A stretch of 51,974 nt of DNA. It comes from a bacterium. Its GTDB lineage: Bacteria; Patescibacteriota; Minisyncoccia; Phycocordibacterales; SBAW01. The position numbers and the translations under genes were made by a program. The number at the start of each line of letters is the position of its first letter. Positions within the stretch are counted from its first letter, which is position 1. Of the stretch, positions 7,217-34,136 are shown in pieces. The DNA lies in contig SBAW01000024.1 in assembly GCA_005239955.1 (NCBI GenBank), positions 1 to 51,974 of the forward strand. Direction: 5' to 3'. The notes beneath the pieces were generated by a model. It had not been told where the DNA came from and did no database searches. It saw only the letters and a program-made list of their open reading frames with translations.

Positions 7217-7981
7217 TTAGAGTGGTGGGAGTGCAATGAGGGGGACAATTTCGCTCCGGCTCGGCCTCCCCTCAAACGGAATGGGCCAGGTAAAGACAAG
7301 CTCTTCCCTCCCATCTCGCGGGAGTGAGGGCAAGATGGTTTGGGAGGCGCCAATCGCGTTGTCGCTCGTGTCATAGATAATAGCGGTCACCAACTGCGCC
7401 GGAAGCGTTGCTCGCGTCGTGTTTTCAATGAGCGTCGTAAGGCGCGGGGCCGTTTGTTCATTTTCCAGGCGCGACTGTGCCACACGAATGGGGGAGGTTG
7501 GTGTATCCATACGCTCCCACTCGACGGGGCGGTCAAACTCAAAAAAAGTTTGTCGCGGAGTGCGGCTGCCGGTTGGAATATTCGCATAAAAGACGGCGGT
7601 CACACTGTTAGGGGCGAGCGGTGTTTCTCCTTCTTTGATGGCGACAATGACATTTTCTTCATCAAAAAGTTTAATGACGTAATGCGCACTACGTGTCCCC
7701 GCGCCTTGGTTTTGGTTTTCAACATAGGCAACCGCGCTCCAAAGACCCTCTTTCACTTTAAAAGAGCGGCTCCACTTGATAATGGGCGCCTGCGCCTCGT
7801 GCGGACAGATTTTGACGCACGCGCCCCCACAATCAATACCCGTTTCCATCCCGTTACGAATGCCATCGTCACATGTCGCCTCACGGTAGAAAAAGAGAAA
7901 CATCAAAAGCGCAATCGTGATAAGCGAGATGGTCCCGAAGGTAACAAGGTAAAGATTGCGACGGCGCGAGGCCCACGACAT
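7217..7981 (-). CDS. Membrane-anchored extracellular hypothetical protein with a Cys-rich CxDGxxNxxExxxDCGGxC motif
   Basis: Basic N-terminus and TM helix (start MSWASRRR, ATG 7981), Cys motif, then beta-rich domains. Confidence 0.75.
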   Translation of the reverse strand: MSWASRRRNLYLVTFGTISLITIALLMFLFFYREATCDDGIRNGMETGIDCGGACVKICPHEAQAPIIKWSRSFKVKEGLWSAVAYVENQNQGAGTRSAHYVIKLFDEENVIVAIKEGETPLAPNSVTAVFYANIPTGSRTPRQTFFEFDRPVEWERMDTPTSPIRVAQSRLENEQTAPRLTTLIENTTRATLPAQLVTAIIYDTSDNAIGASQTILPSLPRDGREELVFTWPIPFEGRPSRSEIVPLIALPPL

Positions 7982-8004
7982 ATAAAAAGTGTAACACCAC
8001 ACGC

Positions 8005-8036
8005 ACAAACGCGCCTCCGTACGGAGGCGCGTTTGT
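8005..8036. terminator. Intrinsic terminator downstream of the 23S-5S unit
   Basis: Perfect palindrome ACAAACGCGCCTCCGTACGGAGGCGCGTTTGT. Confidence 0.65.
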
Positions 8037-8246
8037 TACTTTCAGTGCTTTAAACTGGCGGCTACCTATTGCCGAGCGAGTGAGTGAAATGGCTCGCGTG
8101 CGTAGACATTTCCGAGCGAGTGATGGCTATATGGTATGCCATACTCTTGCCCCGAAGGAGTACCATCGGCGGGCTGAAGCAACCCCGTTGCTTCAGCCGG
8201 CTGCACTTCTGTGCCTGTCCCGTACTAAAAATTTCGGTACACTGTA

Positions 8247-8353
8247 CCCGGCATCTAGCTACTCTTCCCCCGAAGGAGTACCATCGCCACTAGTGGGCTT
8301 AACTGCTGTGTTCGGAATGAGAACAGGTGTGTCCCCACCGTTAAGACACCGAG
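8247..8353 (-). rRNA. rrf: 5S rRNA (intact inner copy)
   Basis: Minus strand reads CTCGGTGTC...ACACCTGTTCTCATTCCGAACACAGCAGTTAAGC...CGATGGTACT...GAGTAG...GATGCCGGG. Helix I pairs, and an inverted repeat (8218-8238 / 8362-8384) flanks the gene. Confidence 0.93.
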
Positions 8354-8402
8354 AACGGTACACCGAAATTTTTTAGTACTGGGATTCGGAATTGTAGGGT
8401 GT

Positions 8403-8490
8403 GTCACGCATCATTTTCTGCTGAAAATGTGCGCGACCCCGCCTCGTCTGCCTTCGCAGACTCCGGCTGCAAAACACTCCGTGTTTTGCC
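8403..8490 (-). repeat. Family B structured element inserted in the outer 5S relic
   Basis: GCAAAACAC-GGA-GTGTTTTGC hairpin, then GCCGGAG-stem-CGAGGCGGGGTCGCG-stem-CGTGAC, the same core as the efp and rpsR copies. Confidence 0.8.
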
Positions 8491-8670
8491 CCCACCGCCA
8501 AACCACCAGATTGAAGCACTGAAAAACAACACACATTATTGCGATTCTCACGTTCCCAAGTGGGATCGGATCATTAGTACTCCTTGGCTAAGCGCGTTAC
8601 CGCGCGTACACCGAGAGCCTATCAACGTCATCATCTCTGACGATCCTTAACGATTCCTCATCTTAGGGTT

Positions 8671-8703
<33 letters not shown>

Positions 8704-8782
8704 ATTCCCGACTTAGCTACGAGGCGATGCCGTTGGCACGACAGCCCCCACACCAGAGGTCAGTTCATTCCGGTCCTCTCGT

Positions 8783-9605
8783 CACGTACATCCGACTTCG
8801 CTCAGTATCGTGAGCCTGTCGAACGATATCCCCCACTTTCATGGAGCGTAGACTATATCTTCTTCCGTCCGATAGGTATCGGCGAGGAAGGCGGCATCTT
8901 ACCTGTATGAGCCGTCGCTCTCTGTGGAGCGATTCGCCGTCATACAAGTCCGAGTGTCTTTCAACTCAAGTCGTTACGGGGTCAAACCAAGAACCGTAAG
9001 CAGCTCTGGTAGCGTTCTTTTGCGCCTTGTTGCGTAATTCTCATTTTGAATCACGAGCATAAGCGCCGCTAACCGTCTCAGCTGCTTTTCACCTAGCTTT
9101 TTGTGTGGAGATTCAGAAAGAATATGTGCCGCCGTATACAGGGCACGTGCTTGCGCACGTTTAAACCGTATATGCGGCATGAGCATACGGAGTATGTTCC
9201 GTACTTGGGCATGCCCGTTTACTCGGAGCTCGGTCATGCCGTCGTTTCGTCTTGAAACGTAGCCGATACCAAGCACCTTTTGAATCCAATACAACTCTTT
9301 TTCATGCCGAGTATCTTGATAGAAGCAGATCGTAGTCATGAAGCGTCGCTTCAGGGCTCCATCTTTTCGCTTTTTGATTTGGAGCATCAGACTACCATCG
9401 CCATCAAGAAAACCGGCAATGTACGCTAGGGATGTTTTTGGTCGACTTCCCACGGTATTATCGTATCGCTTTTCTGGTCCTCAAGCAAGTCTCTTATCCA
9501 CGGACTAGGGGGATAAAAGACTCTCGGACCAAAACGCGATAGACGACTTCACCGTTATAAGCCGCATTGTCATCGCGCATCTCTGCGCGAAGTAGCAATT
9601 TATTT
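8783..9605 (-). mobile_element. Group I intron in the sarcin-ricin loop (after U2656 equivalent) with a LAGLIDADG ORF
   Basis: Removing 8783-9605 restores CTAGT|ACGAGAGGACC. The 5' exon ends in U and the intron ends in G. R-like CGTAACGACTT and S-like AAGATATAGTC elements are present. Confidence 0.88.
8974..9453 (-). CDS. Intron-encoded single-motif LAGLIDADG homing endonuclease
   Basis: YIAGFLDGDGS motif; 159 aa; lies inside the 23S intron. Confidence 0.92.
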   Translation of the reverse strand: MGSRPKTSLAYIAGFLDGDGSLMLQIKKRKDGALKRRFMTTICFYQDTRHEKELYWIQKVLGIGYVSRRNDGMTELRVNGHAQVRNILRMLMPHIRFKRAQARALYTAAHILSESPHKKLGEKQLRRLAALMLVIQNENYATRRKRTLPELLTVLGLTP

Positions 9606-9668
9606 ACTAGGAACGAATCCCTTCAAGAATCAACGCCTGCAGTAGATAGGAGACCAACCTGTCTCACG

Positions 9669-9984
9669 CATGTTCTCACAGATTGCTCTGTGCATTGGAC
9701 TGTAGCTTTGTCTGCGTACGCAGACATCTGACGTTCAGTCTCTACGGGTCGATTCTTATCACTCGTGGTGAGCGAAGTCGAACCATTCCCTCGGTATAGC
9801 CCTTCGCTTGCGCTCAGGATTCCACCGATATTAGTCAGCTTGTTTGTACTGATGCGCAATGCGCAGAAGTACAACCGCCGTGATGTGATTGGTTTATCTT
9901 TTTGATGACGAAAAAACATTTTTTAACGATAACTCTCTCAATGGGATTCAGACTGTCCTGAAGCGAAACGTATTTCGCTGAAGG
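9669..9984 (-). mobile_element. Group I intron at 23S position 2593 equivalent, with no intact homing endonuclease
   Basis: Removal restores TTCAGACCGT|CGTGAGACAG with U|...G boundaries. P1/IGS pairing TTCAGACCGTCCT with AGGACAGTCTGAA; R-like CGTAGAGACTG and S-like AAGCTACAGTC. Confidence 0.9.
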
Positions 9985-10647
9985 ACGGTCTGAACCCAGC
10001 TCGCGTACCTTTTTAATTGGCGAACAGCCAAACCCTTAGGACCTTCTCCAGCCCCGGGATAAGGTGAGCCGACATCGAGGTGCCGAACTCCGCCGTCGCT
10101 CTGGACGCTTAGGCGGAACTAGCCTGTTATCCCCAGAGTAGCTTTTGTCAGATGGTCTTCCGCCGCGTCTAACGCGTACGGTCGGTTCACTATGTCCTGC
10201 TTTCGCACCTGCTCGGCACTTACGCCTTACAGTCAAGCCCTCTTATGCCATTGCACTATCGGCACGGTTTCCATCCGCGCCTAGAGGACCTTAATGAACT
10301 CCTCCGTTACTTTTTAGGAGGATAGCGCCCCACTAAAACCGCCTGCCAGATACTGTCTCCGCTCGTTTTTGCCGCTCGGGTTAGTGCATACAACTAGAAA
10401 GAATGGTATTTCACTGACGAGTCCATACCAGCCGAAACCGATACTTCAATCTCTCCCATCTATGCTACGCAGTCACGTCGTATACACAATATCAAGCTAC
10501 AGTAAAGCTTCTGGGGTCTTTTCGTCTAACTGCAGGTAACCGGCATCTTCACCGGTACTGTATTTTCACCGGGCTGTTCTCCGAGACAGTCCCCCACTCA
10601 TTACACCATTCGTGCGCGTCGGAACTTACCCGACAAGGTATTTCGCT

Positions 10648-11331
10648 CTTCGATACCTTCACGAAGGACTCTATCTTCATCCCGCAGTAGCGGGAGCATG
10701 GCGTTTGGTCTCTGAGGATTTCAAGAATTGAGATTTTTGCTTACGGTTCATCGACTCAATTGTACGAGCAATTAACCGCAAACCAGACATTGTGAGATGT
10801 CTCTTTTGATACACTAGCTTCACAATATCCGCGAATAACTCAAAATCTTTTTGTTTTGCAGTACGCAATCGATGTGCACGGAAGAAAGGAATTATTTTCT
10901 CCTGTAGGTCCACAATGGATCTCACACAAAAACGATAGAGATTCTCACGATGATTGTCGTATCGCTTATTCCGAAAGATTTTTCCACATTGGAAATATCG
11001 TTCGAAGATTTCAAGTGCTGGCAAGCTTTTCTGACCTTGTGTTATCACAAATTCAGGAAATACTTGCCATCCGTACTTAGTGGTTTTGTTTCGAAAGATG
11101 CTGACGGTAAAGCATCCTTCTCCGTCGGTAAATCCGACGATCCACTGCTCAATTCTTGACCTTTCCTGCTGATTAATCATCTATGGGATAAATATACCAT
11201 AGACACTTTCTAGCATATGGCCATGTTTGGACTGACTATACATTGCTGTATAGCGAGGTAGCTTATTCGTTTACCATCCATAATCGTCCCAGTCCTACGC
11301 CGCACGTGCGCGTTGTGCGCACCCGCGGCAT
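10648..11331 (-). mobile_element. Group I intron at 23S position 1931 equivalent with a LAGLIDADG ORF
   Basis: Removal restores TCCTAAGGT|AGCGAAAT with U|...G boundaries. Q-like AATCAGCAGG, R-like CCTCAGAGAC and S-like AAGATAGAGTCC. Confidence 0.9.
10677..11180 (-). CDS. Intron-encoded single-motif LAGLIDADG homing endonuclease
   Basis: WIVGFTDGEGCF motif, FVITQ and IIPFF..L.T.K..DF. Confidence 0.93.
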   Translation of the reverse strand: MINQQERSRIEQWIVGFTDGEGCFTVSIFRNKTTKYGWQVFPEFVITQGQKSLPALEIFERYFQCGKIFRNKRYDNHRENLYRFCVRSIVDLQEKIIPFFRAHRLRTAKQKDFELFADIVKLVYQKRHLTMSGLRLIARTIESMNRKQKSQFLKSSETKRHAPATAG

Positions 11332-12807
11332 ACCTTAGGACGATTATAGTTATCGCCGACATTCACCAGGGCTTATACAGCGTCAGCACAACATCTTGCG
11401 ACATTGCACCGGCCGTAGTTGACCTTCTGGCATTGGTCAGGTGTCACCCCCTATACATCCTCTTACGAGTTCGCAGGGAGCTGTGTTTTTGGTAAACAGT
11501 TGGCAGGGGTACTTTCGCTGCGGCCCCGCCCCGCTTGCGCGGGAAAGGGCAGGCCTTATTCCGAAGTTACGGCCGCTTTTTTGCCGAGTTCCTTGGAGAA
11601 CACTCACCCGTTCGCCTTACTCTTCTCGAGCAGACCACCTGTGTCGGTTTGTGGTACGGATTTAGCTGTCATGAGTTTAGAAGTTTTTCTTGGAAGCGTG
11701 CTTTGTCGATTCGCCACGGCCTAAACCGCGACTAACCGCAGGGCTCGCGATTGCCATTAAAGGCGGATGCCGGATTTGCCTAGCACCCTCACTTACCGCA
11801 CGGACGCAAATCCAATAATGCGCCCGACATACTACGCTCCGTCACTCCATCACTGACAGCCAAAGTCACGGAATATTAACCGTGTATCCATCAGGTCCGG
11901 CTTTCGCCATACCCTTAGGACCGACTAACCCTTCGCTGATCACCGTTGCGAAGGAAACCTTGGTCTTTCGGCGTGCGGGGATCTCACCCGCATTGCGGTT
12001 ACTTGTGCCTGCATTCTCACTTCCATGCACTCCAGTATGGGTCACCCCTTTACCTTCATCGCAGCATGGAACGCTCTCCTACCACGCCACCTCGACGGAT
12101 CGAGATAGCATCCTCAGTTTCGGTACGACGTTTGAGCCCCGATTATCTTCGGCGCGAAATCTCTGGATGAGTGAGCTGTTACGCTTTCTTTGAATGATGG
12201 CTGCTTCTAAGCCTACATCCTCATTGTCAGAGAAATTTCACCTCCTTGTGATGCACTGAACGTCGATTTTGGGACCTTAACTTGAGATCCGAGCTCTTCC
12301 TCTTTTGACCACCGGAGCTTAGCCCCCGGAGTCTGACTGCATGCTAGTGGCCGCGGGTATTCGGAGTTTGATAGGATTAACGGGCTTTCGCTCTATTTAA
12401 TCCTTCCAGTGCTCTACCCCCCGCGGGTACGGCATACGCTAGTCCTAAAACTATTTCGGAGAGAACCAGCTATTACCAGATTCGATTAGCTTATCACTCC
12501 TTACCACAGGTCATCCGATAGTTTTGCACGGCTAACCGGTTCGGGCCTCCCTCCCGCTTTCGCGGAAGTTCACCCTGCCCATGGCAAGCTCATCTGGCTT
12601 CGGGTCTTTTTTGTGCTACAGGGTCGCGCTATTCACACTCGCTTTCGCTATGGCTCCGGGGGTTCGCCCCTTAGCCCAAAGCAGCACAAAAAAACTCGCA
12701 GGCTCATTCTTCAATAGGCACGCCGTCGAGGTCTCGCTTGCGCTTAACCTCTTCGACTCATTGTAAACACATGGTTTCAGATCTATTTCACTCCCCTTAT
12801 CGGGGTG

Positions 12808-12847
<40 letters not shown>

Positions 12848-13469
12848 TCCGAGAGTATTTAGCCTTACCGGTTAGTTCCGGCAGATTCACCCGAGCTATT
12901 CGTGTCTCGAGCTACTCAAGAACGATAACGAGAGAGATGATTCCTTTTCGTCTACGGGCCTATTACCCTCTGGGGCTATGCTTTCCAGCATATTCGACTA
13001 AAAAATCATTTTGTAACTCTCCGCACGTATAAGGTGCCGTTATCGCCTTACAACCCCCAGCATCAGTTACGCCACTCATCTTTCGATAAGTAGCTTAGCT
13101 GAAGCTAGGTTTGGGCTTCGTCCGTTTCGCTCGCCGCTACTTAGGACATACCAATTGGTTTCTTTTCCACCAGGTACTGAGATGTTTCACTTCCCTGGGT
13201 ATGCTCCGTGCGTCTATTGACGCTCGGTTCCTGTGATTTCTCACAGGAGAGTTTCCTCATTCGGAAATCTCCGGATCGAAGGTTGCTTGGCACCTCCCCG
13301 GAGCGTATCGCCGCCACGCTACGTCCTTCTTCGCCTCTCATGAGCCTAGGCATCCACCATGTGCTCTTGTTTCCACACTGGGAAACGTAAGAACCGCAAT
13401 AATGTGTTTTGTTTTCTTTTGCTTCCCCGCATCGTGTCCGCAATGCATGGGAAGTTACAGTTACTTGTT

Positions 13470-33552: not shown

Positions 33553-33687
33553 AAGCACACTGCTGTGCTTCTATAGCTATACGAACCGGCCGGAGACATG
33601 TTTTTGCAGCAGCAAAAAACAGTCGAGGCGGGGTCGCGGAATTTTGTGAGCTGGCGAGCAAAATATCCGTGACTAGAGAAGTCGTGA
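33538..33687 (+). repeat. Family B element at the efp 3' end
   Basis: The stop region pairs with an antisense segment (AGCTATAGAAGCAC/GTGCTTCTATAGCT). Core GGCCGGAG...CGAGGCGGGGTCGCG...CGTGAC is followed by TAGAGAAGTCGTGA. Confidence 0.8.
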
Positions 33688-34136
33688 TGCTCCGCTTTCA
33701 GGATCTCTTCACCTGCTGGAGGTATAGTGTCTTTGGTACGTCACGGCTCGTCTAGGGAGGACCGCGCTGAAGGGCCCGCCGCAGAATGTGTCAAAACACA
33801 CGCGGCGGCCCTTTTTTATTCATTGCATAACTTCCTCGCATGCTTTCTATGAAACGCTATGCTTATGCAACAAACTGGCTTTGTGAGACGCCCCCGCAAA
33901 GTCGGCAACGGGCTTCACCAAAGCCCACCTGAGAGCCGTTTGCTTCTGTGGGAGGAGAAACGGCCCTCTTTCTTTTAGTAGTTATCCCCACGTACGCCCG
34001 AGGCCGGTAGGTATTCCTGCTATGTTGGCGTTATAGGCTCAGCCGTCCCGACTCCTCCCTCTCCTCCCGGGAGTCGCGGAACTGGCCACCACTCGTCCTG
34101 CGGCAGGACGAATAGTGGTGGCCACTTTGTTTATGG

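What the first reader, a model, noticed from the sequence alone, without database searches (positions are those of the whole stretch)
8041..8523. Russian-doll 5S rRNA: an intact 5S gene nested inside an older 5S gene broken by four insertions
Seen: an outer 5S (8055-8509) keeps its helix I (CTGGTGG/CCGCCAG), helix II arms and flanking stem (8041-8050/8514-8523). It is split by (i) a family B element, (ii) a ~170-bp insert between CCGAA and CACAG holding a complete, sequence-divergent 5S with its own long processing stem (8218-8384), (iii) a GGCTGAAGCAAC/GTTGCTTCAGCC hairpin and (iv) a ~70-bp insert (about 8069-8141). Inference: a second 5S, possibly foreign, was inserted into the resident gene and took over its function under the same promoter, after which the relic collected small elements. 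This would be whole-gene replacement echoing the 3'-end replacements.
Basis: partly seen in the sequence, partly recalled or inferred. Interest (0 to 1): 0.85.

Follow-up and report, generated by a model that had tools for sequence, protein, structure and literature searches.

The report
Live 5S gene inside dead 5S
The only intact 5S ribosomal RNA gene of this small uncultured bacterium sits inside the broken remains of an older 5S gene, and the same Russian-doll layout recurs in several other uncultured bacteria, pointing to an undescribed way of replacing an essential RNA gene.

Summary
All features lie on the minus strand. An intact 5S gene (8246-8353; Rfam 77.7 bits) with its own roughly 28-bp flanking stem forms a 171-nt cassette. 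The cassette sits inside a second 5S homologue (8053-8510) split into five pieces by four inserts of 85, 171, 22 and 75 nt. My spliced profile alignment scores the outer copy 64.4 bits, against a best null of 17.4. With the inserts removed it scores 65.4 bits against an HMM of 29 relatives' 5S.

The outer copy is decayed: 4 of 52 near-invariant columns are changed and 8 of 37 pairs are lost. The inner copy is clean.

Two inserts belong to dispersed repeat families. An independent contig assembly of the same sample spans the whole structure.

The layout recurs: four distinct nested 5S genes in metagenome contigs, a 5' relic in a Paceibacterota MAG, and 3' relics in three relatives.

A foreign origin, the order of events and which RNA is mature remain inferred. 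The mechanism is unknown: no target-site duplication and no reverse transcriptase were found. I found no description of nested 5S genes in print.

The parts
8566..8811 (-). True 3' end of the 23S rRNA gene (model positions 2655-2912)
   Evidence: Rfam LSU_rRNA_bacteria, 170.6 bits
8513..8562 (-). 3' arm of the 23S processing stem. It pairs with 13376-13425 and overlaps the outer 5S flank arm at 8513-8524.
   Evidence: Inverted repeat I1, 50 nt, 82% complementary
8503..8524 (-). Outer 5S: 5' flank arm plus the 5' strand of helix I
   Evidence: Inverted repeat I3 with 8040-8061, 22 nt, 86%; closes the predicted fold
8491..8510 (-). Outer 5S piece 1 (profile columns 1-20: helix I, loop A, 5' strand of helix II)
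   Evidence: Spliced profile alignment
8406..8490 (-). Insert 1: one copy of the family B element (three hairpins), in the 5S sense orientation
   Evidence: query 73-138 matches many genomes of the family; 57 bits; 14 of 23 predicted pairs show compensatory change
8385..8405 (-). Outer 5S piece 2 (columns 21-43: helix III and loop C, with two 1-nt deletions)
8354..8384 (-). Cassette 5' arm (processing-stem arm of the inner 5S)
   Evidence: Inverted repeats I2 and I8; fold
8246..8353 (-). Inner 5S rRNA gene: intact, and the only Rfam-level 5S in the genome
   Evidence: RF00001, 77.7 bits, model 1-120; 36 of 37 consensus pairs; 0 of 52 near-invariant columns changed
8214..8245 (-). Cassette 3' arm
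   Evidence: Inverted repeats I2 and I8; fold
8194..8213 (-). Outer 5S piece 3 (columns 44-64), with two changed invariant bases in the GTTAAG motif
8172..8193 (-). Insert 3: 22 nt that create a 12-15-bp hairpin (8169-8201)
   Evidence: Inverted repeat I7. No other copy in the genome.
8144..8171 (-). Outer 5S piece 4 (columns 65-98: helices V and IV), nearly the same as in the inner copy
   Evidence: Direct repeat D1, 27 nt, 96%; 28/30 identical
8069..8143 (-). Insert 4: one copy of a dispersed intergenic repeat of about 60 nt
   Evidence: 11 other copies in the genome, 9 of them free of ORFs of 90 aa or more; copies also in relatives (query 408-476)
8053..8068 (-). Outer 5S piece 5 (columns 99-114: 3' strand of helix I)
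8040..8061 (-). Outer 5S: 3' strand of helix I plus the 3' flank arm
   Evidence: Inverted repeat I3
8005..8036 (.). Perfect 16+16 palindrome just downstream of the outer 5S; likely the end of the operon
   Evidence: Inverted repeat I6, 100%. Logan contigs break here.

Best explanation
The rRNA operon (minus strand) once ended in an ordinary 5S gene with a short flanking processing stem, as in all relatives. A complete transcription-and-processing unit, made of a second 5S gene with both arms of its own flanking stem (171 nt), was inserted into that gene. The break lies at the 3' side of loop C, between profile columns 43 and 44.

The inserted copy is co-transcribed from the operon promoter, is released through its own stem, and is now the cell's only working 5S. 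The split resident copy became a pseudogene. It lost base pairs and conserved bases. It then took up a family B element (85 nt), a 22-nt hairpin-forming insert and a copy of a 60-nt intergenic repeat (75 nt). Helix I and the flank stem of the relic survive.

Shown: the anatomy, the homology of both copies to 5S, the decay of the outer copy, the repeat-family membership of two inserts, and recurrence elsewhere.

Inferred: which RNA is mature, the order of events, DNA-level illegitimate insertion (possibly of DNA taken up from a relative), and later gene conversion of helix IV/V between the two copies.
For: Anatomy and statistics:
- The outer copy scores 64.4 bits against nulls with a maximum of 17.4.
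- The excised outer copy scores 65.4 bits, E 1.7e-18.

Only one Rfam-level 5S:
- One in the genome, which is 91.6% complete.
- Mostly one per genome in the family: 72 of 88 genomes are over the cut-off.

Decay of the outer copy only:
- Outer: 29 pairs kept, 5 mismatched and 3 gapped of 37; 4 of 52 near-invariant columns changed.
- Inner: 36 of 37 pairs kept; 0 of 52 changed.
- Relatives: 33-37 pairs kept.

Native context of the outer copy:
- It abuts the 23S stem arm.
- Its first 21 nt equal those of relative G008.

The cassette looks like a native unit:
- In 29 of 29 relatives' loci the 5S is flanked by arms that pair right next to the gene.
- No promoter-like site lies in 7900-8700.

The copies diverged as working genes:
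- 3 compensatory pair differences between inner and outer.
- Inner is nearest to G001 (91/108); outer is nearest to G008 (87/104).

Inserts 1 and 4 are members of dispersed families.

Assembly:
- A 689-nt Logan contig of runs X1 and X2 covers 8007-8695 with 0 differences, at depth 55.6 against 55 in the flank. This is the same sample, so it is not independent.
- A 233-nt contig of a lake metagenome (X4) covers 8206-8393, both cassette junctions, with 23 differences and 6 gaps.

Recurrence:
- 6 of 11 metagenome loci found by a loop-C nesting pattern are true nested 5S genes, giving 4 distinct sequences: L076, L078=L080, L083, L084~L075. Their outer scores are 56-82 with the inner copy masked, apart from the cut-off L075, which scored -23.6.
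- Their inner copies are over the Rfam cut-off and lie downstream of a 23S.
- L076 has the cassette as its only long insert.
- ComEC is present, so DNA uptake is possible.
Against: - No RNA data: which molecule is mature is not shown.
- No donor lineage was found. The best relative is only 84-85% identical. The 23S 3' end does not say which genus is nearest, with identities of 73-85%.
- Inner and outer share a helix IV/V stretch (28/30, against 52/75 elsewhere; Fisher p 0.01) that none of the 29 relatives has. Origin by local duplication followed by divergence is therefore not excluded.
- There is no target-site duplication or other mechanistic signature at the junctions of the 5 dolls.
- The nesting pattern I searched with allows only insertions near loop C, so the apparent hotspot is an ascertainment effect.
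- The layout is rare: 0 of 400 other genomes sampled from the phylum match the pattern.
- My alignment forces complementary halves by construction. Its jump cost was my choice.
- The RF00001 model was not run on the excised sequence.
Confidence: 0.72

Rival explanations
1. Reverse order of events. The resident 5S was first damaged by a small element, such as family B, which has a marked preference for this 5S site. The intact cassette was then acquired and fixed as a rescue.
For: The family B element lies at the same 5S position (between columns 20 and 25) in five relic-bearing loci. It is forward in G000 and L085 and reversed in G018, G083 and G088. This indicates targeting of 5S rather than random landing in dead DNA.
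Against: A cell with one 5S gene would lose it at the moment of insertion. L076, L078, L083 and L084 are dolls without a B element at that site. L076 has the cassette as its only long insert. Targeting of a dispensable relic explains the same data without a lethal intermediate.
Confidence: 0.1
2. Not an insertion. Two or three tandem 5S copies were reduced by deletions to a 5' piece, a whole gene and a 3' piece.
For: Tandem or partial tandem 5S genes exist. G038 has two full copies 90 nt apart. L086 has a 5' partial copy before a full one, and L085 has a 5' relic only. G018 and G083 have a 3' relic after a full copy.
Against: Two deletions would have to leave exactly complementary halves in each of five separate dolls. 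The inner cassette in each carries both arms of its own stem and little else. Inner and outer differ by compensatory changes, not as fresh duplicates.
Confidence: 0.07
3. The outer copy is still a working, expanded or split 5S. The four stem-closed inserts are removed or tolerated like intervening sequences, so one transcript gives two 5S molecules.
For: Every insert folds into closed helices. Helices I, IV and V of the outer copy are intact. Expanded 5S rRNAs with 13-109-nt helical insertions at 17 sites are documented (PMC7812874, abstract).
Against: Inserts 1, 3 and 4 interrupt helix strands. Two invariant bases of the GTTAAG motif and two positions of loop C are changed. Helix III has two deletions. 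An intact copy is present, which removes the need for the outer one.
Confidence: 0.06
4. Assembly artefact: a chimera of two strains' 5S alleles.
For: The genome is a 56-contig metagenome assembly. rRNA regions are prone to misassembly.
Against: A second assembler's contig spans 8007-8695 with no difference, at the same depth as the flank, with no joint or loose end inside for X1 and X2 other than a stray 5S read at 8340. A contig from another study covers both cassette junctions. Four other nested 5S genes come from unrelated assemblies.
Confidence: 0.03

Closest known systems
5S rRNA gene remnants (pseudogenes) with insertions next to normal 5S genes in Peptococcaceae and Pseudoalteromonas (Stepanov and Fox 2021, PMC7812874; abstract and passages read)
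   Same: These are decayed 5S copies that carry insertions. They lie at the distal end of an rRNA operon beside a normal 5S. The 3' relics of G018, G083 and G088 look like this.
   Different: There the remnants lie downstream of the normal gene, after a terminator, in genomes with several operons. Here the normal gene lies inside the remnant, in a genome with a single 5S. That study set aside sequences 'with internal duplication', so nested cases may have been discarded. Its supplements were not open to me.
Expanded 5S rRNAs (for example the Halococcus 108-nt insertion; 89 cases of 15 types in PMC7812874)
   Same: Helical, stem-closed insertions within a 5S gene.
   Different: Those keep an intact core and are often the only 5S. 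Here the core is mutated, and one 'expansion' is itself a complete 5S gene.
[quoted passage not shown] 2024, PMC11270868; passages read)
   Same: Same group of organisms. The 23S of this operon is itself about 4.8 kb, with inserts and weak group I matches.
   Different: That survey of 645 CPR 5S genes reports no insertion of 100 bp or more in any 5S gene. Its method (Infernal hits) would report only the inner copy.
RNase III-excised intervening sequences of bacterial 23S rRNA (recalled, not from a call)
   Same: A stem-closed insert in an rRNA transcript that can be cut out at the base of its stem. This is how the inner pre-5S is probably released.
   Different: Intervening sequences are discarded and the host rRNA stays functional as fragments. 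Here the insert is the functional product and the host is the discard.
Integrative elements that target tRNA genes and carry a replacement 3' end (recalled). Seen here in miniature with family B elements in relatives.
   Same: Insertion into an essential RNA gene is made harmless because the incoming DNA restores a working copy. The displaced part stays as a relic.
   Different: Those replace 15-45 nt of a tRNA through an integrase and an att site. Here a whole gene is replaced. No integrase, att repeat or cargo is seen.

Membership tests
5S rRNA (RF00001): inner copy 8246-8353 | Covariance-model score over the curated cut-off across the full model | tested here: met
   77.7 bits against a cut-off of 38, model 1-120
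5S rRNA (RF00001): inner copy 8246-8353 | Helices I-V and the conserved loop bases shared with relatives | tested here: met
   36 of 37 consensus pairs; 0 of 52 near-invariant columns changed
5S rRNA (RF00001): inner copy 8246-8353 | A stable RNA of about 108 nt is made and enters ribosomes | not testable with these tools
   No RNA run holds the stretch. The one RNA run listed had 5% of the words.
5S rRNA: outer copy, as a homologue | Significant similarity to 5S over its whole length once the inserts are removed | tested here: met
   Spliced profile 64.4 bits against a null maximum of 17.4. Excised sequence 65.4 bits, E 1.7e-18, HMM positions 1-112.
5S rRNA: outer copy, as a homologue | RF00001 score over the cut-off | tested here: not met
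   No RF00001 match on the native sequence, even at E up to 10 on each flank alone. The excised sequence could not be given to the Rfam tool.
5S rRNA: outer copy, as a working gene | Intact helices II and III and invariant loop bases | tested here: not met
   5 mismatched and 3 gapped pairs of 37; 4 of 52 near-invariant columns changed; three inserts interrupt helix strands
Expanded 5S rRNA (Stepanov and Fox) | Insertions form helices that leave the conserved core intact | tested here: not met
   The helices form, but the core is mutated.
Transposable element or MITE: the 171-nt cassette | Terminal inverted repeats, a target-site duplication and several copies | tested here: not met
   Inverted arms are present. 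No duplication beyond 4-5-nt chance words at 5 dolls. The arms have no other copy in the genome.
Group I or other catalytic intron: any of the four inserts | Match to an intron covariance model | tested here: not met
   No intron family at E up to 10 in 8035-8245 or 8354-8530
Dispersed structured repeat 'family B': insert 1 | Many copies with a conserved core and a structure kept by compensatory change | tested here: met
   Dozens of matches in the 88 genomes of the family. 22 copies aligned: 15 invariant columns, and 14 of 23 predicted pairs have changes on both sides. No Rfam family.
Retroposed pre-5S (RNA-mediated copy) | A reverse transcriptase available in the genome | tested here: not met
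   No RVT_1 match in the 91.6%-complete genome. Absence from an incomplete genome is not proof.

The most novel reading that the evidence does not exclude
Nesting is not an accident. It may be the product of a recurring process in Patescibacteria-type bacteria that moves a whole '5S plus processing stem' unit into a resident 5S gene. That would make it a self-sufficient RNA-gene cassette which becomes indispensable by destroying the copy it lands in. The dead shell then serves as a safe harbour for a second, 5S-site-specific small element, family B, which elsewhere docks at the 3' ends of tRNA genes. If so, essential structural-RNA genes in these one-operon genomes turn over by insertional self-replacement, by a mechanism not yet known.
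Probability: 0.2. Interest if true: 0.88.

Novelty: new variant of a known kind. Interest (0 to 1): 0.72.

Why it matters
5S rRNA is a single-copy, essential gene in these reduced genomes. rRNA genes are usually thought hard to replace. Here an essential RNA gene was replaced in place, and the evidence is preserved around it. The same layout appears in several lineages.

The finding gives a dated, readable record of rRNA gene turnover, and possibly of transfer between relatives.

It shows that standard annotation (Infernal/Rfam) reports only the inner gene. This may be why a survey of 645 CPR 5S genes saw no insertions.

It identifies a small structured element with a preference for one 5S site and for tRNA 3' ends.

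It offers natural examples of what a 5S transcript can carry and still be processed, which is relevant to 5S engineering.

Tried and rejected
- Rfam on each flank alone at E up to 10 gave only chance-level microRNA, snoRNA and sRNA matches. It did not detect the outer pieces.
- An exact 23-nt junction word found nothing in metagenome contigs.
- Five of 11 metagenome loci (L074, L077, L079, L081, L082) and 2 of 4 genome loci (L087, L088) from the nesting pattern have no real 5S and were dropped.
- 0 of 400 other genomes sampled from the phylum match the nesting pattern.
- A pattern for the B-to-5S junction over 300 other genomes of the order hit one genome (G515). Its match does not look like a B element. 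The sample held only 4 genomes of the family, so it says little.
- The 23S 3' end does not place G000 nearer to one genus, so 'which 5S is native' stayed open.
- The frame-openness printout around B copies was uninformative.
- Junction words gave no target-site duplication.
- Runs X3 and X4 hold only parts: the conserved 5S core and B-like sequence from other organisms. The one exception is the 233-nt X4 contig.
- Supplementary files of the papers were not opened. Supplemental File S2 of PMC7812874, and its discarded 'internal duplication' sequences, may hold nested cases.
- No tree of 5S was built: 105-114 columns give too little signal. I used pair counts and identities instead.

Full report
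WHAT IS THERE

The window is contig C54 of a 716,084-base, 56-contig genome that is 91.6% complete. Its size, its rRNA inserts and the run labels (groundwater metagenome) fit a Patescibacteria-type bacterium.

The rRNA operon runs on the minus strand. Rfam reports a 23S match at 9908-13376 and one 5S gene at 8246-8353 (77.7 bits). The true 23S is longer than the Rfam match:
- Its 3' end (model 2655-2912) is at 8566-8811.
- A 50-nt stem pairs 13376-13425 with 8513-8562.

The 5S region therefore follows the 23S directly.

I took the 5S genes of 29 relatives, aligned them to 114 columns and built a log-odds profile. I then aligned 8540-8030(-) to it with a dynamic programme that allows long jumps at a flat 10 bits. 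The intact copy was barred from matching.

The best path scores 64.4 bits and has exactly four jumps:
- 85 nt after column 20
- 171 nt after column 43
- 22 nt after column 64
- 75 nt after column 98

The outer pieces are 8510-8491, 8405-8385, 8213-8194, 8171-8144 and 8068-8053.

The same programme was run on two nulls:
- 250 random chunks of the genome: mean -6.9, sd 6.9, max 17.4
- 250 dinucleotide shuffles: mean -5.9, sd 6.5, max 14.5

An HMM of the 29 relatives scores the excised outer copy at 65.4 bits (E 1.7e-18, positions 1-112) and the inner copy at 92.6 bits. Rfam itself does not see the outer copy on the native sequence, and the tool cannot take an excised sequence.

The 493-nt RNA folds at -221 kcal/mol, z = -10.0. 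The outer flank stem with helix I encloses everything, and the long inner stem encloses the inner 5S.

LIVE AND DEAD COPIES

Measured on the consensus structure of the relatives (37 pairs; the relatives keep 33-37):

| Copy | Pairs kept | Mismatched | Gapped | Near-invariant columns changed |
|---|---|---|---|---|
| Inner | 36 | 0 | 1 | 0 of 52 |
| Outer | 29 | 5 | 3 | 4 of 52 |

The four changed columns in the outer copy are two in loop C/helix III and two in the GTTAAG motif. Helices I, IV and V of the outer copy are intact. Three of the four inserts cut helix strands. No promoter-like site lies in 7900-8700.

I infer that the inner copy is the working 5S and the outer one a relic. No RNA data were available to show it.

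WHERE THE COPIES COME FROM

The outer copy is at the native place, and its first 21 nt are identical to those of G008.

In all 29 relatives' loci the 5S is flanked by arms that pair next to the gene. The cassette, a 5S with both arms, therefore looks like a complete native unit.

Identities:
- inner against outer: 80/105
- inner against its nearest relative, G001 of another genus: 91/108, with the same unusual helix I
- outer against its nearest relative, G008: 87/104

Inner and outer differ by three compensatory pairs. This argues that they diverged as working genes.

They nevertheless share helices V and IV almost exactly: 28/30, against 52/75 elsewhere (Fisher p 0.01). The 27-nt repeat D1 is this stretch. 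None of the 29 relatives has this version. Gene conversion after insertion, or a chimeric donor, would explain it.

The 23S 3' end is 78-85% identical to all relatives, with no clear nearest genus. I cannot say which copy is native in type.

THE INSERTS

Insert 1 (8406-8490) is a full copy of a structured element of about 90 nt.
- It has many matches across the 88 genomes of the family.
- It has 15 invariant columns in 22 aligned copies.
- It has compensatory changes in 14 of 23 predicted pairs.
- It has no Rfam family.

In 19 loci of relatives, 14 have a same-strand tRNA just upstream of this element. In 8 of the 14 the element starts within 0-4 nt of the tRNA's end. In 7 of the 14 it is followed by a 12-19-nt duplicate of the tRNA's 3' end.

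Insert 4 (8069-8143) belongs to a repeat of about 60 nt with 11 other copies in this genome. Nine of them are outside ORFs of 90 aa or more. Copies also occur in relatives.

Insert 3 (8172-8193) is a local hairpin with no other copy.

IS IT AN ARTEFACT?

Logan's contigs of two runs of one sample, possibly the source, include a 689-nt contig covering 8007-8695 with no difference. Its depth is 55.6 and the flank's is 55. This is a second assembler on the same reads, not an independent sample.

A 233-nt contig from a lake metagenome of another study covers 8206-8393, both cassette junctions, with 23 differences and 6 gaps. I could not retrieve its sequence.

IT RECURS

A pattern demanding two 5S loop-C regions 40-70 nt apart found 11 metagenome loci. 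Six are nested 5S genes, giving four distinct sequences: L076, L078=L080, L083, L084~L075.
- Each has a complete inner 5S over the Rfam cut-off, with its own stem.
- The inner copy lies inside an outer 5S broken after columns 49-62.
- With the inner copy masked, the outer copies score 56-82; the exception is L075, whose contig ends inside the structure and which scored -23.6.
- Each lies downstream of a 23S.

L076 has the cassette as its only long insert; the 297-nt jump near its 5' end is an alignment artefact. The others also carry extra hairpins in the relic. Compensatory differences between inner and outer number 5 in L076, 5 in L084, 1 in L078 and 1 in L083.

The same pattern on species-representative genomes gave 4 loci, of which 2 are real:
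- L085, a Candidatus Paceibacterota MAG, has outer columns 1-20, a family B element in the same place and orientation as in G000, outer columns up to about 55, and then a complete 5S with its own stem. It has no 3' relic.
- L086, a Vicinamibacterales MAG, has a 5' partial copy before a full one.

Within the family:
- G018 and G083 have a full 5S followed by a relic that starts at about column 13. The relic carries a reversed B element after column 24 and further inserts.
- G088 keeps a stub of the same arrangement.

With the intact copy masked, 2 of 53 relatives' loci score above 30: G083 and the tandem pair of G038.

The layout is rare. 0 of 400 other sampled genomes of the phylum match the pattern. 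The pattern can only find breaks near loop C, so no hotspot can be claimed.

MECHANISM

The junctions of the five dolls show no target-site duplication. The cassette arms have no other copy in the genome. No reverse transcriptase was found. A ComEC homologue is present.

My best reading is DNA-level illegitimate insertion of a complete 5S unit, possibly from DNA taken up from a relative. Only insertions that bring a whole, processable unit into the transcribed operon can survive the loss of the resident copy. That would explain why the cassettes are always complete and stem-closed.

The family B element occupies the same 5S site in five relics, in either orientation. I read this as site preference that can only be tolerated in a dispensable copy. 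Its invariant core holds a 9-mer that is also the helix II/loop B sequence of the relatives' 5S. I cannot tell whether that is chance.

COMPARISON WITH WHAT IS KNOWN

- Stepanov and Fox (PMC7812874; abstract and passages read) describe expanded 5S rRNAs, and also 5S remnants with insertions downstream of normal 5S genes. They excluded sequences with internal duplication.
- Tsurumaki et al. (PMC11270868; passages read) found no insertion of 100 bp or more in 645 CPR 5S genes.
- My searches for nested, interrupted, truncated or fragmentary 5S genes and for 5S pseudogenes returned no bacterial nested case among the papers listed.

I therefore rate this as a new variant of a known kind: 5S relics and rRNA insertions are known, but a gene nested in its own predecessor is not.

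VERDICT

Function, order of events and origin are inferred. The mechanism is open.

Noticed in passing
L055-L072 (relatives); window 8406-8490: The family B element is a structured element of about 90 nt. In relatives it sits directly after the 3' ends of diverse tRNA genes (Arg, Val, Leu, Trp, Ile, Glu, Ser). In 7 of 14 loci it is followed by a 12-19-nt duplicate of that tRNA's T-loop-to-3'-end. This looks like a miniature integrative element that carries a replacement tRNA 3' end. It has no Rfam family.
   Followed up: partly
window 8431-8439; alignment A1 columns 64-72: The invariant core of family B contains the 9-mer GGCGGGGTC. This is also the helix II/loop B sequence of most relatives' 5S genes, and the element inserts into 5S at just this region. 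Whether this is chance, mimicry or descent is unresolved.
   Followed up: no
window 8563-13376 (-): The 23S gene spans about 4.8 kb. Rfam's full-length alignment stops at 9908, but the real 3' end is at 8566-8811. The roughly 1.1 kb between them holds a weak group I intron match (8830-9012, 19 bits) and a 159-aa ORF (8974-9453, -). A second weak group I match lies at 10657-10834.
   Followed up: partly
window 8513-8524: The same 12 nt belong to both the 3' arm of the 23S processing stem and the 5' flank arm of the outer 5S, so the two stems are mutually exclusive alternatives.
   Followed up: no
window 33553-34030: A stretch of about 480 nt has no ORF of 60 aa or more. It begins with a hairpin and a B-like core (33622-33673, 23 bits against the B HMM). 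It has no Rfam match at gathering level.
   Followed up: no
window 1-51974: The 52-kb window holds no 16S rRNA gene and no tRNA gene, so the 23S-5S pair is unlinked from the 16S.
   Followed up: no
own genome C32:4312-4371, C54:22634-22689, C54:26731-26787, C22:1115-1171 and others: The insert 4 family is a repeat of about 60 nt, mostly intergenic. It has short terminal inverted words, an inner 7-bp stem, and the same CTCGCTCGCT word on both arms, so the two words cannot pair with each other. There are at least 11 copies in 716 kb.
   Followed up: partly
L019 (G038:C13:510-814): Two full 5S genes lie in tandem 90 nt apart in a genome of the same order. The second scores lower (46.6 against 75.9 bits), which may be an early stage of relic formation.
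   Followed up: no
L033 (G018:C2:1-310): In G018 the new 5S and the relic are identical over columns 50-101 but differ in helix I and in the flank stem. This is the same pattern of shared interior and different ends seen in G000, L078 and L083.
   Followed up: partly
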